From the IMG/VR virus record IMGVR_UViG_3300042453_005575, positions 26,077 to 90,076 of that record: DNA of 64,000 bases; one strand, given 5' to 3'. The DNA is from a virus. The notes under the pieces are model-generated. The model was given only the letters and a program-made list of their open reading frames with translations. It ran no database searches and was not told the origin of the DNA. This document shows, one piece after another, positions 995 through 64,000 of the stretch; positions within the stretch are counted from its first letter, which is position 1, and every line of letters starts with the position of its first letter. A program made the translations under genes and the position numbers.

Positions 995-1510
995 ATGCCT
1001 GAAAAATCAGAACAAAAATATACAAAAAAAATAAAAGCTAGAAGAGGAAGACCTCCAGGGTCTAAAAACAAAAAAATTGTAACCCATAAAAAAAGTAGAG
1101 TAGAGAAAGTTAATAATAAAAAAACTCGTTCTAGGGTGAAGATAAGTGCAGTCGAAGAAAAACCTGACAAATTAGCTGCATTCAGGTCTAAGCGAGTAAA
1201 GCCGTTAACTATAGAAAATCTAAAATCCACCCAGGACAAAATTCAAAATTGCAGCCACGATGCAGCTGAAACTGAGGAACTAGATAACCATATTATTATA
1301 AAAGCAGTCAAATGGTTATCACAACATATGCACCACACCGAAGTTCAGTATTATAAAAGTCATTCAAAAAAAAGAAATATGTCTTTTATAAACTGTATGG
1401 TATCCGATATTTTAGGCTTTTTTAATGTAAAAGATACAGACTTGCATAAATATGTTAAAACCAACAAATTCATAGTAAATTACACTAACACAAATGGACT
1501 TCATAAATAA
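995..1510 (+). CDS. Basic DNA-binding protein with AT-hook-like motif
   Basis: RRGRPPGSKNKK AT-hook-like motif in a Lys/Arg-rich N-terminus; overlaps the start of the AAA gene. Confidence 0.55.
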   Translation: MPEKSEQKYTKKIKARRGRPPGSKNKKIVTHKKSRVEKVNNKKTRSRVKISAVEEKPDKLAAFRSKRVKPLTIENLKSTQDKIQNCSHDAAETEELDNHIIIKAVKWLSQHMHHTEVQYYKSHSKKRNMSFINCMVSDILGFFNVKDTDLHKYVKTNKFIVNYTNTNGLHK

Positions 1511-3080
1511 AATCAACAATTACCATAAAGCTTGTTACTCAGGCTTGTTTGTATTAACCCACGAAGAAGGAAGACTTTCTAGGGAGCTATTGAGCTTGAG
1601 TGACCGAGACCCGGGAATAGCTATACACGAGTGGGACGCCCAAAACGGGTTAGTTTATAGGATAGGTGCAAATGAAGGTGTCCACCCGGACGAAACAAAA
1701 TCTACATCTTATTTGTTAGATTATATTCAAAATTATAAACATACGGACACCATTTTTATCTTGAAAGATTTTCATCTGCATTTTGATAAAGTTATTAATA
1801 TTAGAATGCTTAGGAATGCTTGGAATAAGTTAAAACGCCGCAGAAATATGATAATCTTTGTCGGGCACAAATTCGCTGTTCCTGCAGAGCTGCAGAAAGA
1901 AATCCAGCTGTTAGACTATAATCTCCCTGATGCCGCAGCTATTAACGAGAGGCTTACATTCATCAAAGATTCAATCAACAAAGAGCTGCAAGACTCAAAT
2001 AAGCCTATTATTGAAATAGAGCAATCTATTGCTGAGGCATCTGTAGAGGCTGCCAAAGGCATGACCCATGTGGAAGTCGAGAATGCTTTTGCTATGGCGT
2101 ACGTGACGGCTAAAAAGTTTGATAGTGTTTTTGTTGACGCCGTTTTTCAAGAAAAAATAGCTCAACTTAAGAAAAATGGCCTACTCACATACATGGAACC
2201 AAACATATCATTTGATAATGTGGGTGGTATGTCCGGGCTTAAAAATTGGTTATTGGCGCGTAAAAAAGCTTATTCAAAAGATGCGCGTAGTTATAATCTA
2301 CCTTTACCTAAAGGAATGTTGTTGGCCTCTGTTCCAGGCACTGGCAAATCACTCATATGCAAAGCTATAGCTAAAGAATTTGACTGCCCATTATTTGCGT
2401 TAGATCTTGGGTGCATATTCGACTCTTTAGTCGGCAACAGCGAGAAAAATATGAGAGAAGTTATTAAAACGGTCGAGAGTATAGGTAAGTGCGTAATATT
2501 GATAGACGAAATCGAAAAAGCCCTTAGCAACTCAGCAGTGTCTGGGCAAGGAGATTCAGGCGTAAGCTCACGTATATTCGGCACATTTTTAAGCTGGCTC
2601 AATGATCGAACAAATCCTGCTTTTATAGTGGCTACAACAAATAATCATACGTTGCTTCCTTCTGCGCTTATTCGCAAAGGAAGATTTGACCAGTTATTCT
2701 GGGTAGATCTTCCTAGCGCTGAGGAGCGGAAAGAAATATTCAATGTGGTTATCAAAAAATACGGAAGAGACCCTAGGGATTTTTCGATAAAAACTTTTGT
2801 TTCTGGCGCCGAAAATTTTACAGGTGCAGAAATCGAAGAGGTATTCAAAGATGCTATGTATAGAGCTTTTGATCGTGGAGAAGAAATAGCAGACAATCAT
2901 GTAACTGATGTTTTGGCAGATTTCATTCCTTTTGCTGTGTCGCATGAGGAAGACTTGAAAATAATGCGGCGACAAGCTCAAGGTAAACTTGCGATGGTCA
3001 CATCGGAAGGAGACCCTATCGCCGACGTAGAAAAAAATATGCGCAAGTTGAGCATTGCGCTAGGAGTAGGAGCAGAATAA
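1494..3080 (+). CDS. Ycf46-like AAA+ ATPase
   Basis: Degenerate N-terminal AAA domain (ILKDFH); C-terminal domain with SVPGTGKS Walker A, ILIDEIEK Walker B, TTNN sensor and RKGRFD arginine finger. Confidence 0.85.
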   Translation: MDFINKINNYHKACYSGLFVLTHEEGRLSRELLSLSDRDPGIAIHEWDAQNGLVYRIGANEGVHPDETKSTSYLLDYIQNYKHTDTIFILKDFHLHFDKVINIRMLRNAWNKLKRRRNMIIFVGHKFAVPAELQKEIQLLDYNLPDAAAINERLTFIKDSINKELQDSNKPIIEIEQSIAEASVEAAKGMTHVEVENAFAMAYVTAKKFDSVFVDAVFQEKIAQLKKNGLLTYMEPNISFDNVGGMSGLKNWLLARKKAYSKDARSYNLPLPKGMLLASVPGTGKSLICKAIAKEFDCPLFALDLGCIFDSLVGNSEKNMREVIKTVESIGKCVILIDEIEKALSNSAVSGQGDSGVSSRIFGTFLSWLNDRTNPAFIVATTNNHTLLPSALIRKGRFDQLFWVDLPSAEERKEIFNVVIKKYGRDPRDFSIKTFVSGAENFTGAEIEEVFKDAMYRAFDRGEEIADNHVTDVLADFIPFAVSHEEDLKIMRRQAQGKLAMVTSEGDPIADVEKNMRKLSIALGVGAE

Positions 3081-3084
3081 CACT

Positions 3085-4104
3085 ATGATTGCGGAAAACA
3101 ACCCAAAAGAATATAAAATAACAGATACACTGCAAAAGTATTACGACAAAGTTTTTCAAGATGGAAAACTTGTGAATGTGCATATAGGCATGTGGGGGAT
3201 GAGCTATAGTTTAACCGAGAATGATATTAAACTGGATAATAAATTACCAGAAACCATTAAACTCGGTAAAAAAATGCTTATTAAGCCTGCAGTATTCAAC
3301 GCATTCAAAAATTATGAACAGCGCGTTCGTAATTTTCTTTATAGTAATTCTTTTGAATTCCCATTAGTGAGCCAAGCGCATTTCGTCCCCAAGTCAAAAT
3401 ACATGGAAGTGTACGGAAAGCTTAATGAAATGGGGAATAAGTATATGGGAATGGTTGATGAGTTTATTGAAAAATACCAGGATTATAAAAAGGAGGCGCT
3501 TGATTATTACGAGCAGCATAAAGATTCAGTGAACGTCGAGCATTTGGAAGAATATTACCCAGAACCTGGGAAAGTTCGCTCTAAGTTTTATTTCGATATT
3601 GTTTCATTCGAGATAACTATACCTGCCGAGTTTAAAAAGTTGGACTTGCACGACGAGATTAACCGTGAAAAAGCTGCGGCCGAAGCTCGGGAGCAGGCGT
3701 TAGTTAATTACGAAGATCAATATTCGAAGCAGCTCGATGTGCATATGGCTAAAATTAGCGATTTTGTTAATGCCGCAACGCTTACCTTGCGTGAAAAGAT
3801 AACAGAGCATTGTGAAGTTGCTTTGAATAAAATTAACAAAAAAGAAATTGTGTCCGATGCCAATATTCGTACACTAATGAAACATATCAAAGAATTCAGA
3901 GAACTGAACTTTGTTGATGATAAAGCTATCGAGGATAAACTTCAAAAAGTAGAAGCGCTTCTACAAGGCGATCATGATTTTAGTAAAGATAAAGACGCTT
4001 TGGGTTTGCTTAAAGAGCACCTCGCAAGCGTTGTCACCGAGGCTGAAAACTTGACAGACTTAGCTAATGTGTCTGGAGAGTATTTTAGGAAACTAAGCGT
4101 TTAA
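3085..4104 (+). CDS. Helical protein, DUF3150-like, associated with the AAA module
   Basis: 339-aa ORF directly after the AAA gene; LGKKMLI...AHFVP...YYPE pattern and context resemble DUF3150-type proteins. Confidence 0.5.
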   Translation: MIAENNPKEYKITDTLQKYYDKVFQDGKLVNVHIGMWGMSYSLTENDIKLDNKLPETIKLGKKMLIKPAVFNAFKNYEQRVRNFLYSNSFEFPLVSQAHFVPKSKYMEVYGKLNEMGNKYMGMVDEFIEKYQDYKKEALDYYEQHKDSVNVEHLEEYYPEPGKVRSKFYFDIVSFEITIPAEFKKLDLHDEINREKAAAEAREQALVNYEDQYSKQLDVHMAKISDFVNAATLTLREKITEHCEVALNKINKKEIVSDANIRTLMKHIKEFRELNFVDDKAIEDKLQKVEALLQGDHDFSKDKDALGLLKEHLASVVTEAENLTDLANVSGEYFRKLSV

Positions 4105-18519: not shown

Positions 18520-18774
18520 ATGAAATATAAAATCGACATCGCAGACAGAACTGGACACACCACCATGGCAGACTTAAATATTCAAGAGGCTACTGATCAA
18601 ATTATAGACCACGCTGAAAAAAACTTGATGTGGGTATTTATAAACGGTGAAAAGTTTGAGTTTTCTGGAGCTGATTTTCGCTCTGAAGAAAATGTTGAAA
18701 AGCTTCAAGGGAAGCTCGAAGCGCTGAATGACCCTGCGGTTCTCTTGACTGGCGCATTGGTTGGCGGTTGCTAA
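18520..18774 (+). CDS. Ubiquitin-like (ThiS/MoaD beta-grasp) protein ending in Gly-Gly-Cys
   Basis: 84 aa; two N-terminal strands plus helix, WVFINGE, final strand VLLTGALVGG then TGC TAA; JAB and E1 genes lie downstream. Confidence 0.75.
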   Translation: MKYKIDIADRTGHTTMADLNIQEATDQIIDHAEKNLMWVFINGEKFEFSGADFRSEENVEKLQGKLEALNDPAVLLTGALVGGC

Positions 18775-18813
18775 TCAAATAGAGTAAAGCTTTTACTAAA
18801 AGCCGAAACTTAC

Positions 18814-18849
18814 TTAGCCCTGCACCGTTTAAATATGGTGCAGGGCTAA
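18814..18849 (+). terminator. 13-bp perfect stem-loop after the Ubl gene (terminator or processing/stability element)
   Basis: TTAGCCCTGCACC-N10-GGTGCAGGGCTAA; no strong U-tract. Confidence 0.55.
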
Positions 18850-18884
18850 AAGTTTATATACATACACACACACTTATCTAAAAT

Positions 18885-20963
18885 TTGAGCATTTTTATTC
18901 CTATGCATTTTTCCATAAAAGAATTTAAAACAATTGTAAACGACTTTTTCGCATACAATAAACATATTATAAGCGGGCAAGTAACGGTAGACTATCACTA
19001 TTCTTCAGAAGCAGCCCCGAAATATAGATTAAATTTCGGAAACCTAGAGTTTGAAACTGTGGAGGATATGCATCAAGTTTCCAAATACATACCAATACCT
19101 CTCCACGGGCTGATATATAAGAATAAAGACCGTCACCCTAAGCTTTGGAACCATCTGGTCGTGAGCGCTAATTCTAATGACAAGCCTGCCACATTAAGCC
19201 TCATACAGAAAAAGCATACCGAAGCATTCAAAAGTATTAAACTAATTCCGGAAACTCTAGCAGAAGATCGCCAACCGTTTATTATATGTGAGGAACCTCT
19301 TGAAGTTACTGAAGGAAATTATACTTATAGGTTTTTAACAATACCTGCATCAGGCAGATTCCGTGGCGGATCAAGATCTGATATATATTTGGCAGCTCGA
19401 AATGACGAGCCTATATATGATTACCTGGATAAAGGTTATTTTGTGCTTCCGCTAGTCCGCCGGTTCTCGGCTTCGAATAAAACAGGTAAAACCACGCTTG
19501 TTGCAGATGAATACAACGTTCATGTGGCTCACATCATGCTAATGTGCTGTATACAGCCTGCTTTGGTCTCGGAATTGCAGGATGGATGTTTTATAAATTC
19601 GCATAACGCTGAAATAATGAGGCTGAAATTAGAGAAAAAATTAAGTGAAAAACAAAAAGCAGTTTTCGATAAGGAGAAAGCCAATATCGAAGCAGATTAC
19701 AGGAAAAATACAACTCTCATTGTTATAGGAAAACTCATGTCAGACGATATCCCAAAAACAACTATGAGAGATATCGTGTTTACAAAAACTTCTGCCGCAT
19801 ACGAAAACATTACGATAGAGGCATCTGATTTGCTGAATGTCCTATACTCCAGGATGAATTTCCAAGGCGAGTTCGACATCTACGCTATCAGCAATTTATA
19901 TAGCCAGTATGTAGAAGAATTATTGAACCAATCTCTTGAGGCTAAGGTATTAACACCGATTAAAATTAACGGAATCGAGATCAAGCCCTCGATAACTGCA
20001 ACATATCAAAGATATATCAATGGAATACGAATAAACAAAGACGAAGTAGCCAAAGTTATCCACCGCGCTTCTTGCTTTCATGACCAGAAAGACTACAATT
20101 TGTTTCTTAAGTCCATTTCCCGTATGTCTATACGTTGGCATGATATTATTGCTAATGGCCTGCCTGTAAAAATCCATCAAATGAACTATGATGAATTAAA
20201 ATCGCCAACACCCTCGGAGCGCGCTCCGGTTATAAAATTCTTTATAGACACCGATGACCACAGACAGATCAAAATCAAAGTAGATGACAAGCGTGCTGTG
20301 CGTGTCCAGTTTTCAAAATTACTGAAAAAGGTTGATAGCTTAAATAGAAAAACAAACGGCGGCTATGGTGCTCAGTATATTAACGGGTACAGATACACAA
20401 CTCGAAACGGTGAGTGGTGCGCTCGAGAGCTTGTCGCTATTTTAGCTGAGTGTTGCACATTCGCTGAAAAAACAAAAAATGAAAACGGGGAAGAAGTAAA
20501 CACAGTAAAAGTTGAGATAACGAAAGAAGATCTTACAAAACTTTTAGGTGTGGTGCAAAAAGAAAAAGAAGCAATGCTTAAAAGATCTAAAGAATTTTTG
20601 GCTTCGGCTGTCAAGCTGACCGGAGCAGAATCTATAGAATTTTTGGGTAAACCAGCCTATAAAGTAAAAGGCTTACTCCGTGAATACGCTGTGGTTATAG
20701 AAGACGCTAAAGTTTACGATTACGCTACAAAGCAATACCGCTGTATTGTGAATGACCGCCATTATAAAGGAGCCGGCTATGACGACATAGCATCTCGCTT
20801 ATTGGCACTTAAAAATGACTCTGTTATGCAAAATCATATCGGCACACTCAAAGGAGCTGCTCAACCAGGAGCGGAAAACGCTCACAATAGCTACGCACCC
20901 GACAGAGAGATAGGAGAGATGGTCGAAACTATGGTTGACGAAGTGCTGAAAAAAACTGCATAG
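18885..20963 (+). CDS. Large hypothetical protein of the Ubl cluster; C-terminal Cys-containing domain (candidate E2-like)
   Basis: 692-aa ORF (TTG start; alternative ATG at 18903); C-terminus YKVKG-REYAVV-KVYD-QYRCIV...DDIASRLLALKND. Confidence 0.55.
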   Translation: MSIFIPMHFSIKEFKTIVNDFFAYNKHIISGQVTVDYHYSSEAAPKYRLNFGNLEFETVEDMHQVSKYIPIPLHGLIYKNKDRHPKLWNHLVVSANSNDKPATLSLIQKKHTEAFKSIKLIPETLAEDRQPFIICEEPLEVTEGNYTYRFLTIPASGRFRGGSRSDIYLAARNDEPIYDYLDKGYFVLPLVRRFSASNKTGKTTLVADEYNVHVAHIMLMCCIQPALVSELQDGCFINSHNAEIMRLKLEKKLSEKQKAVFDKEKANIEADYRKNTTLIVIGKLMSDDIPKTTMRDIVFTKTSAAYENITIEASDLLNVLYSRMNFQGEFDIYAISNLYSQYVEELLNQSLEAKVLTPIKINGIEIKPSITATYQRYINGIRINKDEVAKVIHRASCFHDQKDYNLFLKSISRMSIRWHDIIANGLPVKIHQMNYDELKSPTPSERAPVIKFFIDTDDHRQIKIKVDDKRAVRVQFSKLLKKVDSLNRKTNGGYGAQYINGYRYTTRNGEWCARELVAILAECCTFAEKTKNENGEEVNTVKVEITKEDLTKLLGVVQKEKEAMLKRSKEFLASAVKLTGAESIEFLGKPAYKVKGLLREYAVVIEDAKVYDYATKQYRCIVNDRHYKGAGYDDIASRLLALKNDSVMQNHIGTLKGAAQPGAENAHNSYAPDREIGEMVETMVDEVLKKTA

Positions 20964-20988
20964 CCCATCAAATAAACACAGAAAACAA

Positions 20989-21630
20989 ATGAAAGCACCT
21001 TATATACTGGATATAGCTACCACACCCTTGCCAAGAGAAACCCTCTTGGCAAGGGCTCCAGAATTCAAAGCTGGCGCGAATCTAAAAGACCCGGCTAAAA
21101 TAGCCGAAGATATAGAACGAAAAAAGAAAAAGTATTTGGAAGATGCCCATCTTTCAGAAGCAACTGCTACTGTTTCGTGCATAGCTATAGCTGATTATAA
21201 CCATCCAACTGATTCGATGTTGCTCACCAACGACTCTGAGAAGGATTTGCTGGCGAGCTTCGAAGAATTTATAACTAAAAATGAAAAAGAAAAACTAATA
21301 ACATTCAGAGGATTTAAATTTGTTTATCCTTTCTTAGCTAGAAGAGGTGCGGTACACGGGTTCAATTTTTTCAAATATCTTGTGTACCCCGCAGCACTTC
21401 AAAGCAACCCATTCGAGCAACATATCGACGTGGCAAAAATATGGGCTTGTGGGAGCATTTTTCATCCTGAAACGCTTCAAGAAATAGCTGATGTTCTAGG
21501 TATAGAATGCAGCGGGGTTTCTGACATTTACCATGAATTAGTTAATAACACGTCTGATTCTTATGCGTTCGTACATATGTTCAATAAATTAAAAATAATA
21601 AATAAAATAGGTAAAGCCTTAGGAATATAA
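20989..21630 (+). CDS. DnaQ/PolB-type 3'-5' exonuclease-like protein, catalytic motifs degenerate
   Basis: ILDIAT (cf. DIET), EKDLL..F, LITFRGFKFVYPFL (cf. FNG..FD.PFL), HID. Confidence 0.65.
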   Translation: MKAPYILDIATTPLPRETLLARAPEFKAGANLKDPAKIAEDIERKKKKYLEDAHLSEATATVSCIAIADYNHPTDSMLLTNDSEKDLLASFEEFITKNEKEKLITFRGFKFVYPFLARRGAVHGFNFFKYLVYPAALQSNPFEQHIDVAKIWACGSIFHPETLQEIADVLGIECSGVSDIYHELVNNTSDSYAFVHMFNKLKIINKIGKALGI

Positions 21631-21634
21631 TATT

Positions 21635-22084
21635 ATGGGGTTATTTGAAAATATTAATCATCTATTGGCTAAAGAAATAGTCGAAGCCTCCCGTGTATGT
21701 GGATATTCAGAAGAAGAACAGGGTGGTATTATTCTTGAAAAAAATGGGGAGTATGTTTTTACCTATGTGAAAAACAAGCATAGAGGAAGTGATATGGCTC
21801 CTCAGCTGTACGAAACTGACTTAGAAGATTTTAAAGAAAATGTGGCCCCGAAAGTTGCGGATGGGTGGAAATTCTTTGCGAGTTTCCACACACATCCGTC
21901 ATTCAGCCCTACCCCTAGCCGCTTGGATTTGGAGAAGTTATTCACAGGATTCAAATATAATGTTATTTTTGCTACCCATCAAAAAATGTTTTGTTGGGCA
22001 GAATGGTTGTCGCAAGATCATTTATTTTTATATTACATTCCATTAAATTCACTCAAACTTATTATACATCATAATGAATCATAA
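21635..22084 (+). CDS. JAB/MPN+ (JAMM) metalloprotease
   Basis: EQGGIIL catalytic Glu and FHTHPSFSPTPSRLD = HxH-x7-S-x2-D JAMM motif. Confidence 0.9.
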   Translation: MGLFENINHLLAKEIVEASRVCGYSEEEQGGIILEKNGEYVFTYVKNKHRGSDMAPQLYETDLEDFKENVAPKVADGWKFFASFHTHPSFSPTPSRLDLEKLFTGFKYNVIFATHQKMFCWAEWLSQDHLFLYYIPLNSLKLIIHHNES

Positions 22085-22667
22085 AATTGCAATCGCGGGG
22101 GCAGGAGGAATCGGCTCTAACCTATTAGCTATATTATTCGACTACGGCTTTAACCGTAAACAATTTGACTATGCTTCTGCCAAGGTCGATATTTACGATG
22201 ACGACACAGTCGATTTGACTAACTTATTACATCAAAATTATAAAATAGACGACATCGGTAAATACAAAGTATCTGTTATGGAAGACAAGTACATTGTGAA
22301 TGGGATCAAACGAAGGATGACCCCAGACGATTTTAAAAATTACAATGTTGTCTTTTGTTGCGTAGATAATATGCCTTTCCGTAAGGCTCTTTACGAGTAT
22401 AGTTGGAACAACACAGATAAAAAATTGTTCTGGGTTGACGGGCGCTGCACATCGCGGCAAGGCGCGGTGTTCACTTCTGAAATGCCTAAAGATATTCTGC
22501 TAAACTACATAGACGCTTCAAAAGAGGAAGGTGGATGTCTACTCGCCTTTGAGAAAGAACAGAACATCAGCCACACACTTCCAACGATTGTCGCAGGAAT
22601 GATGGCTCAAGCTTTTCTAAACAACCTTCGTGAGCAAAAAACATCCAAACTTATATTTATGGTGTAA
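22074..22667 (+). CDS. E1/ThiF-family adenylyltransferase (Ubl-activating enzyme)
   Basis: GAGGIGS, YDDDTVDLTNLLHQ, IGKYK, CCVDN..FRK, WVDGR, candidate catalytic EGGC. Confidence 0.9.
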   Translation: MNHKIAIAGAGGIGSNLLAILFDYGFNRKQFDYASAKVDIYDDDTVDLTNLLHQNYKIDDIGKYKVSVMEDKYIVNGIKRRMTPDDFKNYNVVFCCVDNMPFRKALYEYSWNNTDKKLFWVDGRCTSRQGAVFTSEMPKDILLNYIDASKEEGGCLLAFEKEQNISHTLPTIVAGMMAQAFLNNLREQKTSKLIFMV

Positions 22668-60844: not shown

Positions 60845-63800
60845 ATGGCTAATCAAACAATTCCTCAACTTCCTGAAGCCACAACTTCAGCGTCCTCTGA
60901 TTTATTTCTAATTTTCCAAAATGGCACTACAAAACGTATTACTAAGCAATCATTGTTTGCTAGCATCGTTGGAACCCCTGGCCCTGCAGGAAAAAGTGTT
61001 TTAAATGGCGCAGTAAACCCTTCTTCCTCGGTAGGCACGATTGGTGATTTTTATATCAACATATCTACACATAGAATTTTTGGACCTAAGGCTGCTAGCG
61101 GTTGGGGAACCGGAGCTCCTTTGTTAGGGCCTCAAGGGCCTCAAGGGCCTATGGGTACTTCAATTAAAGTTTTAGGTACAGTGAATTTGACTAGTGATTT
61201 GCCGAGCACAAATAATAAACTAGGCGATAGCTATATAGTAGCAAACACAGGAGATTTATGGGTATGGGGTGGGATTAACTGGACCAATGTTGGAAAAATT
61301 GTCGGTCCCGCGGGTCCACAAGGACCGCAAGGTCTGAAGGGCGATACCGGAGCAACAGGGCTGACCGGGCCCACGGGTGCCACGGGTCCCGCGGGTCCGC
61401 AAGGACCGCAAGGCTTAAAAGGTGACACCGGAGCAACAGGGCTAACCGGACCCGCAGGTGCCACAGGTCCGCAAGGACCGCAAGGGTTGAAGGGTGATAC
61501 CGGATTGACTGGTGCCACGGGTCCGCAAGGACCGCAAGGCTTGCAAGGAGTTAAGGGCGATACCGGAGATACAGGGCTAACCGGACCCACAGGTGCCACA
61601 GGTCCGCAAGGACCGCAAGGGTTGAAGGGTGATACCGGATTGACTGGTGCCACGGGTCCGCAAGGACCGCAAGGCTTGCAAGGTGACACAGGGCTAACCG
61701 GACCCGCAGGTCCGCAAGGACCGCAAGGGTTGAAGGGTGATACCGGATTGACTGGTGCCACAGGTCCGCAAGGACCGCAAGGATTAAAGGGCGACACCGG
61801 AGATACTGGGCTAACCGGACCCGCAGGTCCGCAAGGACCGCAAGGCTTGAAGGGAGATACTGGAGCTACAGGTCCGCAAGGTCCGCAAGGATTAAAGGGT
61901 GACACAGGGCTAACCGGACCCGCAGGCGCCACAGGTCCGCAAGGACCGCAAGGATTAAAGGGTGACACCGGAGCAACAGGGCTAACCGGACCCGCAGGCG
62001 CCGCAGGTCCGCAAGGACCGCAAGGCTTGCAAGGCTTAAAAGGTGACACTGGGTTAACCGGACCCACGGGCGCCACAGGTCCGCAAGGACCGCAAGGATT
62101 AAAGGGCGATGTAGGCGCAAGTGTTAGAATACTTGGAAGCGTAATTAATTCAAGCTTACTTCCAACTTTAAATAACACTTTAGGGGATAGTTATATAGTA
62201 GACGCTGATGGAGATTTATGGGTATGGAATGGCGCTAATTGGAGCAGTGTAGGACAAATCGTGGGTCCGCAAGGCTTGCAAGGAGTTAAGGGCGATACCG
62301 GAGCAACAGGGCTAACCGGACCCACAGGCGCCACAGGTCCGCAAGGACCGCAAGGCTTAAAAGGTGACACCGGAGCAACAGGGCTAACCGGACCCGCAGG
62401 TGCCACAGGTCCGCAAGGACCTCAAGGCTTGCAAGGAGTTAAGGGCGATACCGGAGCAACAGGGCTAACCGGACCCGCAGGTCCGCAAGGACCGCAAGGC
62501 TTAAAAGGTGACACCGGAGCAACAGGGCTAACCGGACCCGCAGGTCCGCAAGGACCGCAAGGCTTAAAAGGTGACACCGGAGCAACAGGGCTAACCGGAC
62601 CCACGGGTGCCACAGGTCCGCAAGGACCGCAAGGTCTGAAGGGCGACACCGGAGCAACAGGGCTAACCGGACCCGCAGGTGCCACGGGTCCCACAGGTCC
62701 GCAAGGACCTCAAGGCTTGCAAGGAGTTAAGGGCGATACCGGAGATATAGGGCTAACCGGACCCGTAGGTCCGCAAGGACCGCAAGGACCGCAAGGATTA
62801 AAGGGTGATACCGGATTGCCTGGCGCCACAGGTCCGCAAGGACCGCAAGGCTTGCAAGGAGTTAAGGGCGATACCGGAGATACAGGGCTAACCGGACCCG
62901 CAGGTCCGCAAGGACCGCAAGGACCGCAAGGATTAAAGGGTGACACCGGAGATACTGGGCTAACCGGACCCGCAGGTCCGCAAGGACCGCAAGGGTTGAA
63001 GGGTGATACCGGATTGACTGGTGCCGCAGGTCCGCAAGGACCGCAAGGAACTGCTGGGGCATCAGGAAAAAGCATCTTAAGCGGTATTGCAGATCCTGCT
63101 TCAAACACTGGTACTGACGGAGATTTCTATATTAACACAACTACAAATCTAATTTTTGGACCTAAAACTGCAGGGAATTGGGGTATAGGTACAGCAATAA
63201 TCGGACCACAAGGTGCCACAGGTCCGCAAGGACCGCAAGGGTTGAAGGGTGACACCGGAGCAACAGGGCTAACCGGACCCGCAGGTGCTACAGGTGCCGC
63301 AGGTCCGCAAGGACCGCAAGGGTTGAAGGGTGACACCGGAGATACTGGGCTAACCGGACCCGCAGGTCCGCAAGGACCGCAAGGCTTGCAAGGAGTTAAG
63401 GGCGATACCGGAGCAACAGGGCTAACCGGACCCGCAGGTGCTACAGGTGCCACAGGTCCACAAGGTGCTACAGGCGCTACAGGTCCGCAAGGACCGCAAG
63501 GACCGCAAGGTGCCACAGGTCCACAAGGTGCTACAGGCGCTACAGGTCCGCAAGGCCCTGCAGGTAGTGTGTTAGCCGCGGCCGCTTGGACTTGGAATAG
63601 TGGGCTTGTGAATGTCGAAAATAATACCGACACTATCATGCCTCTACCTACACAAATCTATAATACCGACACAGCAACATTTGAAAGAGTTAATAACCGC
63701 ATTAATATAAAAACTGCAGGAAAATACAGATTCACAGTTTTTTATAAATCTTTCGATATGCACAGCAATATTATATTTAGAATATTTTTACAATCCACAA

Positions 63801-64000
63801 CATCAAGCACATCCTCACTTCCTTTTACAAACGTGCGAAATTTAAGTAGGTGTATAGGAAATGGGCAGTCAGTCACAGATTCTGCAGAAAGAGCATGGTC
63901 AGACTCTGCTGTAATAGACGTAACTGGAAATACCTGGTACGCGATAGTTCTACTCGCGAATATAAATAGACCTTTCCCTTCAGGAAACGATGGAACTGCC
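60845..64000 (+). CDS. Collagen-like tail fibre / receptor-binding protein (3' end beyond window)
   Basis: ATG at 60845 ([10 protein letters not shown]); start and window end are in the same frame (1052 codons); long Gly-X-Y runs ([15 protein letters not shown]), repeated globular spacers and a beta-rich C1q/BclA-like C-terminal domain. Missing from the track because no stop lies in the window. Confidence 0.88.
61304..63565 (+). repeat. Tandem 9-nt-period collagen repeats
   Basis: Recurring GGTCCGCAAGGACCGCAA, GGTGACACCGGAGCAACAGGGCTAACCGGACCC units in shuffled order. Confidence 0.9.

What the first reader, a model, noticed from the sequence alone, without database searches (positions are those of the whole stretch)
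20560..20850. Candidate non-canonical E2-like domain at the C-terminus of the 692-aa protein
Seen: a helix (AMLKRSKEFLASAVKL), four short strands (ESIEF, AYKVKG, REYAVV, KVYD), then QYRCIV (Cys codon 20742-20744) and a helix (GYDDIASRLLALKND). Known: UBC/E2 folds run helix, four-stranded meander, catalytic Cys, helix. No stand-alone E2 gene is evident in the window and the canonical HPN motif is absent. The segment also recalls the C-terminal region of DUF4132-type proteins. Inference: this may be a divergent E2 fused to about 550 aa of substrate-recognition domains (an E2-E3-like fusion), or the protein may be the substrate.
Basis: inference. Interest (0 to 1): 0.7.

Follow-up and report, generated by a model that had tools for sequence, protein, structure and literature searches.

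The report
Phage Ubl cassette's E2-like cysteine domain
The last ~110 residues of this 692-residue protein from an uncultured lake phage form a small domain with a never-changing cysteine that is predicted to hold the Gly-Gly tail of the neighbouring ubiquitin-like protein, so it is probably the carrier (E2-like) step of a phage-owned tagging kit, though it is not a recognisable classical E2.

Summary
Residues 545-656 of the 692-aa protein fold, in two AlphaFold models, as a long helix, four strands, a loop carrying Cys620 (TGT, 20742-20744) and a helix. Cys620 is present in 239 of 241 aligned domains (the other two are gaps) from a family that reaches down to ~20% identity.

The gene always travels with a GG-ended Ubl, a JAB peptidase and a 197-aa ThiF-type E1. 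This holds in 25 close loci and in 21 divergent loci with a different gene order.

A complex prediction places the Ubl and its C-terminal tail on the Cys620 loop: ipSAE 0.88, best control 0.00.

My reading is a new, very divergent E2-like Ubl carrier domain fused to a ~540-aa module with a second invariant cysteine (Cys397). Confidence is about 0.5. The rivals are a Ubl docking site or substrate in an E2-less system, and a sulfur relay.

This scan has already reported the same family on at least ten other phage genomes.

The parts
18520..18774 (+). Ubl precursor gene (84 aa, ends ...LVGG-C)
   Evidence: The GG is kept in all 24 related loci and is followed by 0-9 variable residues. In 13 divergent loci, 10 stop right after GG. 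It has a weak in-register match to ISG15 (E 0.62).
18885..20963 (+). 692-aa protein; no Pfam or PHROG family above threshold
   Evidence: 100 homologues are conserved over the full length. The AlphaFold model has pLDDT 86.6.
20073..20075 (+). Codon of Cys397, the second invariant cysteine (end of helix 385-397)
   Evidence: Invariant in 45/45 and 72/72.
20517..20852 (+). C-terminal Cys domain (residues 545-656): helix, 4 strands, Cys loop, helix
   Evidence: Always C-terminal in proteins of 600-790 aa. Distant members end at about residue 656.
20742..20744 (+). Codon TGT of Cys620, the candidate thioester-accepting cysteine
   Evidence: Present in 239/241 aligned domains. Lies in the predicted Ubl interface (domain residues 76-80).
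20853..20960 (+). Subfamily-specific C-terminal tail (residues 657-692), lower model confidence
   Evidence: Missing from distant family members.
20989..21630 (+). Optional PolB-exonuclease-like gene inside the cassette
   Evidence: Pfam DNA_pol_B_exo2 at 2.8e-4, below its cut-off. Present in 12 of 25 related loci.
21635..22084 (+). JAB/JAMM metallopeptidase (149 aa)
   Evidence: Prok-JAB at 1.4e-7. Matches PADLOC JAB models. The HTHPSFSPTPSRLD motif is seen.
22074..22667 (+). Minimal E1 (ThiF family, 197 aa), invariant Cys155 (codon 22536-22538)
   Evidence: ThiF at 3.2e-20. Best NCBIfam hit is PRTRC_ThiF at 6.1e-13, below its cut-off. C155 is invariant in 15/15.

Best explanation
The C-terminal ~110 residues (545-656) of the 692-aa protein are a new, very divergent E2-like carrier domain of a phage-encoded ubiquitin-like conjugation cassette.

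Proposed path:
1. The JAB peptidase trims the Ubl precursor (GG-Cys here) to expose Gly-Gly. This step is inferred.
2. The 197-aa ThiF-type E1 adenylates the Ubl and may hold it on its invariant Cys155. This step is inferred.
3. The Ubl docks on the C-terminal domain, with its tail running to the loop that carries the invariant Cys620. The docking is a prediction with controls. Cys620 would then take the Ubl as a thioester, which is inferred.
4. The ~540-aa N-terminal part, with its own invariant Arg149, Asp182 and Cys397, then selects a target or relays the Ubl to it, as an E2/E3 hybrid would. This step is inferred and the target is unknown.

The cassette sits among the phage's replication and recombination genes, so it probably acts during genome replication in the infected cell.
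For: (1) Topology. Helix, four-stranded meander, loop with Cys620 and helix appear in two independent models.

(2) Conservation. Cys620 is invariant in 239/241 aligned domains, the other two being gaps, and in 72/72 diverse full-length members.

(4) Gene linkage. Ubl, JAB and E1 accompany the gene in all 25 close loci wherever the contig reaches that far; each is seen in 24 of 25. In 21 of 21 divergent loci (~20% identity to the window protein) the order is different: large protein, Ubl, JAB, E1. Ubl and E1 are found in 21/21. JAB is found by HMM in 17/21 and by JAMM motif in 2 more that I inspected.

(5) Complex prediction of the domain with the mature Ubl. The median ipSAE is 0.88 (runs 0.88, 0.69, 0.89) and the best of 3 controls is 0.00. 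The mark was reached by 58 of 80 solved complexes and 2 of 110 mismatched pairs. The runs share at least 78% of contacts and the partner pLDDT is at least 85. My own alignments were used, so these counts hold only roughly. The interface contains domain residues 76-80 (Cys620 to Asp624), 82-89, 92-100 and 107-111, and Ubl residues 77-83 (the GG tail), 8-13 and 35-47. Nearly all invariant residues of both proteins lie in this interface.

(6) The slot is otherwise empty. No recognisable E2 and no rhodanese were found in 5 relatives that are 93-100% complete.

(7) The E1 keeps an invariant Cys155.

Against: No E2 sequence family matched. Pfam (including UQ_con and Prok-E2) gave nothing at E <= 0.1 for the protein. 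No E2 family recurred among 72 members at E <= 1 (only 25 of 47 families were listed). PDB profile searches gave no E2.

There is no HPN motif. The His six residues after the Cys (H626) is kept in only 133 of 241 domains.

The complex output does not list a Cys620-Gly83 pair itself. It only places both in the interface. A docked Ubl tail is equally expected for a sulfur-carrier partner or a Ubl receptor.

E2-less Ubl systems exist (SAMP/UbaA and TtuB/TtuC, recalled; Urm1, PMC9574740, abstract seen in a listing), so an E1-Ubl-JAB set does not require an E2.

No experiment exists.
Confidence: 0.5

Rival explanations
1. The system is E2-less, and the 692-aa protein is the dedicated docking partner or substrate. 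The E1 alone activates the Ubl and attaches it, as in archaeal SAMPylation, TtuB or Urm1, to the 692-aa protein or to proteins it recruits. The C-terminal domain is then a non-catalytic Ubl-binding (UEV/RWD-like) receptor. Its cysteine would be structural or redox-sensing rather than a thioester carrier.
For: The best fold matches are to non-catalytic UEV and RWD domains rather than to active E2s. There is no HPN motif and no E2 family match. The complex prediction shows binding, not chemistry. E2-independent Urm1 conjugation coupled to target cysteines has been described (PMC9574740, abstract in the listing).
Against: A cysteine invariant in 239/241 domains down to ~20% identity is unusual for a mere binding surface. 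It lies in the predicted interface next to the Ubl tail. A second invariant Cys, plus invariant Arg149 and Asp182, point to an enzyme.
Confidence: 0.22
2. The cassette is a sulfur relay. The E1 adenylates the Ubl, which becomes a C-terminal thiocarboxylate using a host sulfur donor. The Ubl then docks its tail in the C-terminal domain as MoaD does in MoaE or ThiS in ThiG. The 692-aa protein uses Cys620 (and Cys397) as persulfide or relay cysteines to thiolate a small molecule, nucleotide or nucleic acid needed by the phage. JAB only matures the capped carrier, as in QbsE/QbsD or CysO/Mec (recalled).
For: The E1 is a minimal ThiF/MoeB-type enzyme, and its NCBIfam hits are ThiF/MoeB-type models. 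The single-Cys cap after GG resembles capped sulfur carriers (recalled). The Ubl tail is inserted at the partner's conserved pocket. The cassette sits among DNA-metabolism genes.
Against: No rhodanese was found in 5 near-complete relatives, although the control rang in 13 of 14 genomes. The 692-aa protein shows no sulfurtransferase or PP-loop family. The caps after GG vary from 0 to 9 residues, as in Ubl precursors. The fold neighbours are UBC-like, not MoaE- or ThiG-like. I did not search for a cysteine desulfurase.
Confidence: 0.13
3. The resemblance is incidental. The C-terminal domain is a family-specific structural or oligomerisation module unrelated to the Ubl genes, and the cysteine is conserved for folding.
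For: All fold scores are in the range the tool calls a common arrangement.
Against: The four genes stay together in 46 loci across two gene orders and ~20% identity. The complex prediction scores 0.88 against 0.00 for controls, with conserved residues of both proteins in the interface.
Confidence: 0.05

Closest known systems
Bil systems (BilABCD: Ubl, diverged 'CEHH' E2, JAB deubiquitinase, E1) and the 6A-6E operons of Iyer, Burroughs and Aravind (PMC10557695 and PMC1779556, passages read)
   Same: Both have the same four-part logic: a GG Ubl, a JAB peptidase, a ThiF-type E1 and a cysteine protein lacking the classical HPN. In BilB and the 6d E2s a conserved His lies C-terminal to the Cys, and this subfamily has His626 six residues after Cys620.
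   Different: This cassette is phage-encoded and sits among replication genes, not in a bacterial defence island. The E1 is a bare 197-aa adenylation domain. The carrier domain matches no Prok-E2 or UQ_con model and is fused behind ~540 aa that carry a second invariant Cys. His626 is kept in only 133/241 domains.
Pfam DUF7737 (PF24879), the C-terminal domain of bacterial DUF4132 proteins
   Same: It is the only Pfam family that recurs: 26 of 72 members at E <= 1 (best 7.8e-4), and 1 of 10 divergent C-termini at 0.0014. The window protein's residues 570-626 align to profile positions 6-62 of 103. An ESM Atlas structural neighbour is a DUF4132/DUF7737 cluster (TM 0.49). In both cases the domain is C-terminal.
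   Different: All scores are under the 27-bit cut-off (12.9, 15.7 and 19.1 bits). The matches stop near the Cys and do not cover the following helix. The phage protein shows no DUF4132. I could not obtain bacterial DUF7737 sequences, so I do not know whether they keep the Cys or a Ubl neighbour. Earlier scan notes say they do, but I did not test it here.
Bub pathways (BubA/B/C/D; PMC11601596, abstract and outline read)
   Different: According to that abstract, Bub works through oxyester (serine) intermediates and uses a serine protease. This cassette has an invariant cysteine and a JAB metallopeptidase.
Type II CBASS Cap2/Cap3 (E1-E2 fusion plus JAB)
   Different: There is no CD-NTase. The E2-like domain is not fused to the E1. 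A separate Ubl is present. The PADLOC E1-E2 hits cover only the nucleotide-binding start of the E1.
Sulfur-carrier systems (ThiS/ThiF, MoaD/MoeB, QbsE/QbsC/QbsD, CysO/Mec; recalled)
   Same: Both have a minimal ThiF-type E1, a small GG carrier and a JAB that trims a short cap.
   Different: There is no rhodanese and no recognisable sulfur-using enzyme. The partner domain looks UBC-like, not MoaE- or ThiG-like.

Membership tests
UBC/E2 superfamily (Pfam UQ_con, Prok-E2_A to E) | Significant sequence-profile match to an E2 family | tested here: not met
   There was no E2 family at E <= 0.1 for the protein. None recurred among 72 members at E <= 1 (only 25 of 47 families were listed). PADLOC and NCBIfam gave none. 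PDB profile searches gave none.
UBC/E2 superfamily (Pfam UQ_con, Prok-E2_A to E) | UBC fold (N-terminal helix, 4-stranded antiparallel meander, extended loop, crossover helix) | tested here: inconclusive
UBC/E2 superfamily (Pfam UQ_con, Prok-E2_A to E) | Conserved cysteine in the loop between strand 4 and the next helix | tested here: met
   Cys620 lies 8 residues after strand 610-612 and 13 residues before helix 633-643. It is invariant in 239/241 domains.
UBC/E2 superfamily (Pfam UQ_con, Prok-E2_A to E) | HPN motif upstream of the Cys | tested here: not met
   Residues 545-692 contain no HPN. HPN is also missing from several accepted bacterial E2 families (PMC1779556, passages).
UBC/E2 superfamily (Pfam UQ_con, Prok-E2_A to E) | Binds its Ubl with the C-terminal tail at the active-site Cys | tested here: met
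   This rests on prediction only. ipSAE is 0.88 against a best control of 0.00. Cys620-Asp624 and Ubl residues 77-83 both lie in the interface. The Cys-Gly pair itself is not listed.
UBC/E2 superfamily (Pfam UQ_con, Prok-E2_A to E) | Forms a Ubl~Cys thioester after E1 activation | not testable with these tools
   This needs biochemistry.
DUF7737 (PF24879) | HMM score above the gathering cut-off (27 bits) | tested here: not met
   The window protein scores 12.9 bits and 15.7 bits. The best divergent member scores 19.1 bits. 26 of 72 members hit at E <= 1.
DUF7737 (PF24879) | Lies C-terminal to a DUF4132 domain | tested here: not met
   There is no DUF4132 hit in the window protein or as a recurring family among the 72 members.
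DUF7737 (PF24879) | Shares the invariant Cys and a neighbouring small GG protein | not tested
   I could not obtain bacterial DUF7737 sequences. Earlier scan notes claim both features.
Bil (BilABCD) | Gene set of Ubl, E2, JAB and E1 | tested here: met
   The set is analogous and conserved in 46 loci. This is function-level likeness only.
Bil (BilABCD) | CEHH-type E2 and a multidomain E1 with a separate CYS domain | tested here: not met
   The E1 is 197 aa with a single ThiF domain. No Prok-E2_E match was found. The Cys-to-His spacing is 6 here, against 13 in BilB (PMC10557695 passage).
PRTRC cassette | PRTRC_ThiF score above its cut-off, and PRTRC proteins A-E present | tested here: not met
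   The E1 scores 48.7 bits against a cut-off of 144.75. No PRTRC model hit the Ubl, the JAB or the 692-aa protein at E <= 1.
Sulfur-carrier systems (ThiS/MoaD type) | Rhodanese or another sulfur donor, and a sulfur-using enzyme, in the set | tested here: not met
   Rhodanese is absent from 5 near-complete relatives while the control rang in 13 of 14 genomes. I did not search for a cysteine desulfurase. A host donor remains possible.

The most novel reading that the evidence does not exclude
Large freshwater phages run their own complete ubiquitin-like conjugation pathway. Its carrier is a previously unrecognised class of E2, a DUF7737-like Cys domain. This domain is fused to a ~540-aa module with a second catalytic cysteine, so that one polypeptide acts as an E2/E3 hybrid and relays the Ubl from Cys620 to Cys397 to host or phage replication proteins during infection. 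If the DUF7737 link is real, the same chemistry would give a first function to the widespread bacterial DUF4132-DUF7737 proteins. One of these, D. radiodurans DRA0166, is induced by DNA damage (10.1101/2021.07.07.451423, passages).
Probability: 0.3. Interest if true: 0.85.

Novelty: new variant of a known kind. Interest (0 to 1): 0.72.

Why it matters
Ubl-E1-E2-JAB machinery in prokaryotes has so far been studied as cellular machinery, mostly anti-phage defence (Bil, Bub, CBASS type II). A conserved virus-owned version placed among replication genes would mean that phages also use protein tagging, possibly against the host or to control their own replisome.

The carrier domain matches no known E2 family. 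Showing a thioester on Cys620 would therefore add a new branch to the E2 superfamily, or reveal a convergent carrier. It would also offer a testable function for DUF7737.

The system is small (84 + 692 + 149 + 197 aa) and self-contained, so it can be reconstituted directly in vitro.

I found no paper describing a phage-encoded Ubl conjugation system. The exact-phrase search gave 0 papers. I read only the listings, and they show none. Papers outside the held library and all supplements were not seen.

Tried and rejected
**Sequence and structure searches that found nothing**
- Foldseek against the PDB found nothing at E <= 0.001, for either the whole model or the domain model.
- PDB sequence-profile searches with A1, A3 and A5 gave no meaningful hit. 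A 21-residue chymopapain match at E 0.41 is chance.
- PHROGs gave nothing for the 692-aa protein.
- tblastn against 50,697 phage records and 72,556 plasmids gave no match.
- Two genome-contig scans, with the protein family A1 and the E1 alignment A4, gave no relative in 185,579 species genomes. This left me no bacterial handle for fetching DUF7737 or DUF4132 genes.
- ESM Atlas feature searches gave no usable hit. Its structural rows rest on the Atlas's own poor model (pLDDT 0.36) and I use them only as a lead.
- BFVD gave three unnamed viral proteins (E 3e-7 to 1e-5, 13-14% identity) and no annotation.

**Ideas tested and dropped**
- I checked whether Cys397, His419 and Asp420 form a Cys-His-Asp triad. 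His419 is kept in 54/72 and Asp420 in 44/72, so I dropped the idea.
- PRTRC membership is rejected because the score is below the cut-off.
- The DpdE (PADLOC, 0.042) and MerD (0.03) hits on the domain are treated as chance.

**Other blanks**
- The look-up of sequencing runs listed no RNA holder, so nothing can be said about expression.
Supplements of PMC10557695, PMC11601596 and PMC1779556 may list phage-borne or DUF7737-type examples that I could not see.
Full report
**What is there**

The window is part of a 90-kb IMG/VR virus record that CheckV rates 46% complete. Its GC content is about 38%. The finding lies in ORF 18885..20963 (+), which encodes 692 aa.

The neighbouring genes on the same strand are:
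- an 84-aa ORF (18520..18774) ending ...LVGG-C;
- a 213-aa PolB-exonuclease-like ORF, with weak, sub-threshold Pfam hits;
- a 149-aa JAB peptidase (Prok-JAB 1.4e-7);
- a 197-aa ThiF-family E1 (3.2e-20) that overlaps the JAB gene.

Upstream lie a DnaB-like helicase, PolA and a GP88-family protein. Downstream lie a 342-aa protein and a RecA-like recombinase. The cassette therefore sits inside the replication and recombination block.

Near-identical DNA occurs in lake and freshwater metagenomes. Eight runs hold at least 95% of the sampled words. Five of these may be the source sample, and the three runs not marked as a possible source come from two studies that also hold source candidates.

**The observation**

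The codon at 20742-20744 is TGT, which is Cys620. The full-length AlphaFold model (45-sequence alignment, mean pLDDT 86.6, pTM 0.55) and the domain-only model (residues 545-692, pLDDT 80.4, pTM 0.71) agree. Both give a 33-residue helix (547-579), four strands (582-586, 589-595, 600-604, 610-612), a 20-residue loop carrying Cys620, then helices 633-643 and 645-648. No HPN tripeptide is present.

**Conservation**

A word-index search found 100 homologues, almost all 600-740 aa and aligned over 90-99% of the query, none with a Pfam domain. In 45 of them Cys620 is invariant, and the C-terminal 110 residues are the best-conserved stretch.

An exhaustive HMM search with the domain profile against 1.84 billion cluster representatives found 294 proteins at E <= 1e-3. 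Of these, 150 were listed. The domain is always at the C-terminus of proteins of about 600-790 aa. The shorter rows are probably fragments. In distant members the protein ends a few residues after the T-L that corresponds to residues 654-655. The domain proper is therefore residues 545-656, and residues 657-692 are a subfamily tail.

Across 241 aligned domains:
- Cys620 is present in 239, the other two being gaps.
- Asp645 is present in 239, Thr654 in 238, Gly596 in 238, Asp633 in 234, Arg638 in 231 and Asn644 in 228.
- His626 is present in only 133.

In 72 diverse full-length members (17-52% identity to the window protein) the invariant positions are Arg149, Asp182, Cys397, Gly425, Leu572, Gly596, Cys620, Asp645 and Thr654. 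The protein therefore has two invariant cysteines. A putative Cys397-His419-Asp420 triad does not hold, because His is kept in 54/72 and Asp in 44/72.

**Gene linkage**

In 25 related viral loci (41-54% identity), Ubl, JAB and E1 flank the gene wherever the contig reaches that far. Each is seen in 24 of 25, and each miss is at a contig end. The exonuclease-like gene is present in only 12 of 25.

All 24 Ubl genes keep ...G-x-x-[VIMR]-G-G followed by 0 to 9 unconserved residues. This is the signature of a Ubl precursor trimmed by a peptidase.

I then fetched 21 loci of a divergent subgroup, at about 20% identity to the window protein. There the order is different: large protein, Ubl, JAB, E1.
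- Ubl and E1 were found in 21 of 21.
- JAB was found by my HMM in 17 of 21.
- In two of the other four (L027 and L030), the ORF in the gap carries a JAMM motif.
- L029 and L031 gave the same coordinates and scores as those two, but I did not inspect them separately.
- Of the 13 Ubls I printed, 10 stop directly after GG.

A linkage that survives both deep divergence and a change of gene order argues strongly that the four products work together.

**The E1**

The E1 keeps three invariant cysteines in 15 of 15 sequences, including Cys155 in E-G-G-C. Cys155 lies 57 residues after the Asp of the C-V-D-N motif. From memory, this is the same spacing as the crossover-loop cysteine of E. coli ThiF and MoeB. 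I recalled this spacing and did not test it.

**Is the domain an E2?**

By sequence, no.
- Pfam gave no E2 family for the protein at E <= 0.1.
- Scanning 72 members one by one at E <= 1 gave no recurring E2 family.
- PADLOC, NCBIfam and PDB profile searches gave none.

By structure, the result is suggestive only.
- Foldseek found nothing for either model.
- A second look at Foldseek's own 840 best chains again brought up E2H (3.0), UFC1 (2.5), UbcA1 (2.2) and RWD-like kinetochore proteins.

**Docking of the Ubl**

I predicted the complex of the domain (alignment A5) with the mature Ubl (alignment A6, ending at GG), keeping the rows in the same locus order in both alignments.
- The verdict was 'supports binding'. 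The median ipSAE was 0.88 (runs 0.88, 0.69, 0.89) and the best of three controls was 0.00.
- The mark was reached by 58 of 80 solved complexes and 2 of 110 mismatched pairs in the tool's calibration. Those counts hold only roughly here, because my own alignments were used.
- The runs share at least 78% of contacts, and the partner pLDDT is at least 85.
- On the domain, the confident interface comprises residues 19-35 (helix 563-579), 76-80 (Cys620 to Asp624), 82-89, 92-100 and 107-111.
- On the Ubl, it comprises residues 6, 8-13 (the invariant T-G-H loop), 35-47 (including invariant Trp38 and Gly43) and 73-83 (the tail through Gly-Gly).

The invariant residues of both proteins thus map to the predicted interface, and the cysteine loop and the GG tail are both in it. 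The output does not list the Cys620-Gly83 pair itself, and a prediction is not a measurement. I know of no solved complex like this one, so a pass from memory seems unlikely, but I cannot exclude it.

**What the slot looks like without it**

Five relatives that are 93-100% complete (182-204 kb) have no UQ_con match, no Prok-E2_E match and no rhodanese match at E <= 1. The rhodanese control rang in 13 of 14 genomes, so that blank is meaningful. The E2 controls never passed their cut-offs, so those blanks are weaker.

**Relation to DUF7737 and DUF4132**

The only Pfam family that recurs is DUF7737 (PF24879).
- It hit 26 of 72 members at E <= 1, with a best E of 7.8e-4.
- The window protein's residues 570-626 align to profile positions 6-62 of 103, at E 0.12 and 12.9 bits.
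- A six-frame search of the record gave 15.7 bits, against a cut-off of 27.
- One of 10 divergent C-termini hit it, at 0.0014 and 19.1 bits.
- An ESM Atlas structural neighbour is a DUF4132/DUF7737 cluster (TM 0.49), but that rests on the Atlas's own poor model.

I could not fetch bacterial DUF7737 proteins. I therefore could not test whether they keep the cysteine or sit next to a GG protein, as earlier notes of this scan state. The one paper I found on a DUF4132 protein reports that the D. radiodurans drA0165-drA0166 operon is induced by DNA damage through DdrO/IrrE, and that its function is unknown (10.1101/2021.07.07.451423, passages).

**Mechanism and odds**

The best reading (about 0.5) is a new E2-like carrier. 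JAB exposes GG, the minimal E1 activates the Ubl, Cys620 takes it as a thioester, and the N-terminal ~540 aa (with Cys397, Arg149 and Asp182) choose or relay to a target.
- Shown here: the topology, the conservation and the gene linkage.
- Predicted here, with controls: the Ubl docking at the cysteine loop.
- Inferred: every chemical step, and the target.

The rivals are:
- an E2-less system in which this domain is a UEV/RWD-like receptor or the protein is the substrate (0.22);
- a sulfur relay in which the Ubl is a thiocarboxylate carrier and the cysteines carry persulfide (0.13);
- an incidental resemblance (0.05).

The rest is unassigned.

**Comparison with known systems**

The closest functional analogues are the Bil systems and the 6A-6E operons. 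In BilB, the catalytic Cys138 and a His 13 residues downstream are conserved and HPN is absent (PMC10557695, passages). Iyer et al. describe the 6d E2s in the same way (PMC1779556, passages).

The present cassette differs in four ways:
- It is phage-borne.
- Its E1 is a bare 197-aa enzyme.
- Its carrier domain matches no E2 model.
- The carrier is fused to a large N-terminal module.

Bub systems use oxyesters and a serine protease (PMC11601596, abstract). PRTRC is only the E1's best, sub-threshold NCBIfam hit (48.7 bits against a cut-off of 144.75).

**Earlier findings of this scan**

The same family has been reported on at least ten other phage genomes, with similar readings: an E2-like cysteine domain, a DUF7737 link and Ubl tail docking. 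I used these as leads. The conservation, linkage, fold, Pfam and complex results above are from my own calls on this window. What they add is the rearranged divergent subgroup and the near-complete-genome blanks.

**Literature**

An exact-phrase search for a phage-encoded ubiquitin-like system gave 0 papers. Broader searches listed only cellular systems; I read their listings only. Subscription papers and supplements were not seen.

Noticed in passing
L011:9313-10487 (same contig family as L010): The E1 gene of one relative is split between residues 46 and 47 by a ~1.17-kb insertion. The insertion carries a 330-aa ORF with two LAGLIDADG-like motifs, so it is probably a group I intron with a homing endonuclease, sitting in the most conserved part of the E1.
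   Followed up: partly
L027-L044 (divergent subgroup): The gene order is large protein, Ubl, JAB, E1 instead of Ubl, large protein, (exo), JAB, E1. Most Ubls there end exactly at GG with no cap.
   Followed up: yes
window 20989-21630: The PolB-exonuclease-like gene inside the cassette is optional. It is present in 12 of 25 close loci and was not looked for in the divergent ones. Its Pfam hits are all below cut-off.
   Followed up: partly
window 60845-64000: An ORF of over 1051 aa, open at the window end, made of collagen triple-helix repeats (Pfam Collagen 2.5e-100). It lies in a stretch of 49-54% GC against ~38% elsewhere, and is probably a fibre protein.
   Followed up: no
window 1494-4104: An AAA+ ATPase (528 aa) is followed by a DUF3150 protein (339 aa), upstream of SbcCD-like genes (Metallophos, SMC_N), a helicase and a DnaB-like gene.
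   Followed up: no
window 18520-18768: The Ubl profile gives a weak but in-register match to the first strands and helix of ISG15 (E 0.62; profile 5-37 against chain 6-38). No Pfam family matches the Ubl.
   Followed up: partly
window 18885-20960 (whole model): Three unnamed viral proteins of 416-452 aa in BFVD match the full-length model (E 3e-7 to 1e-5, 13-14% identity). They may be shorter relatives of the N-terminal part.
   Followed up: no
window 18520-22667: Near-identical DNA is held by lake-water and freshwater metagenome runs from 2024. No RNA run was listed.
   Followed up: no
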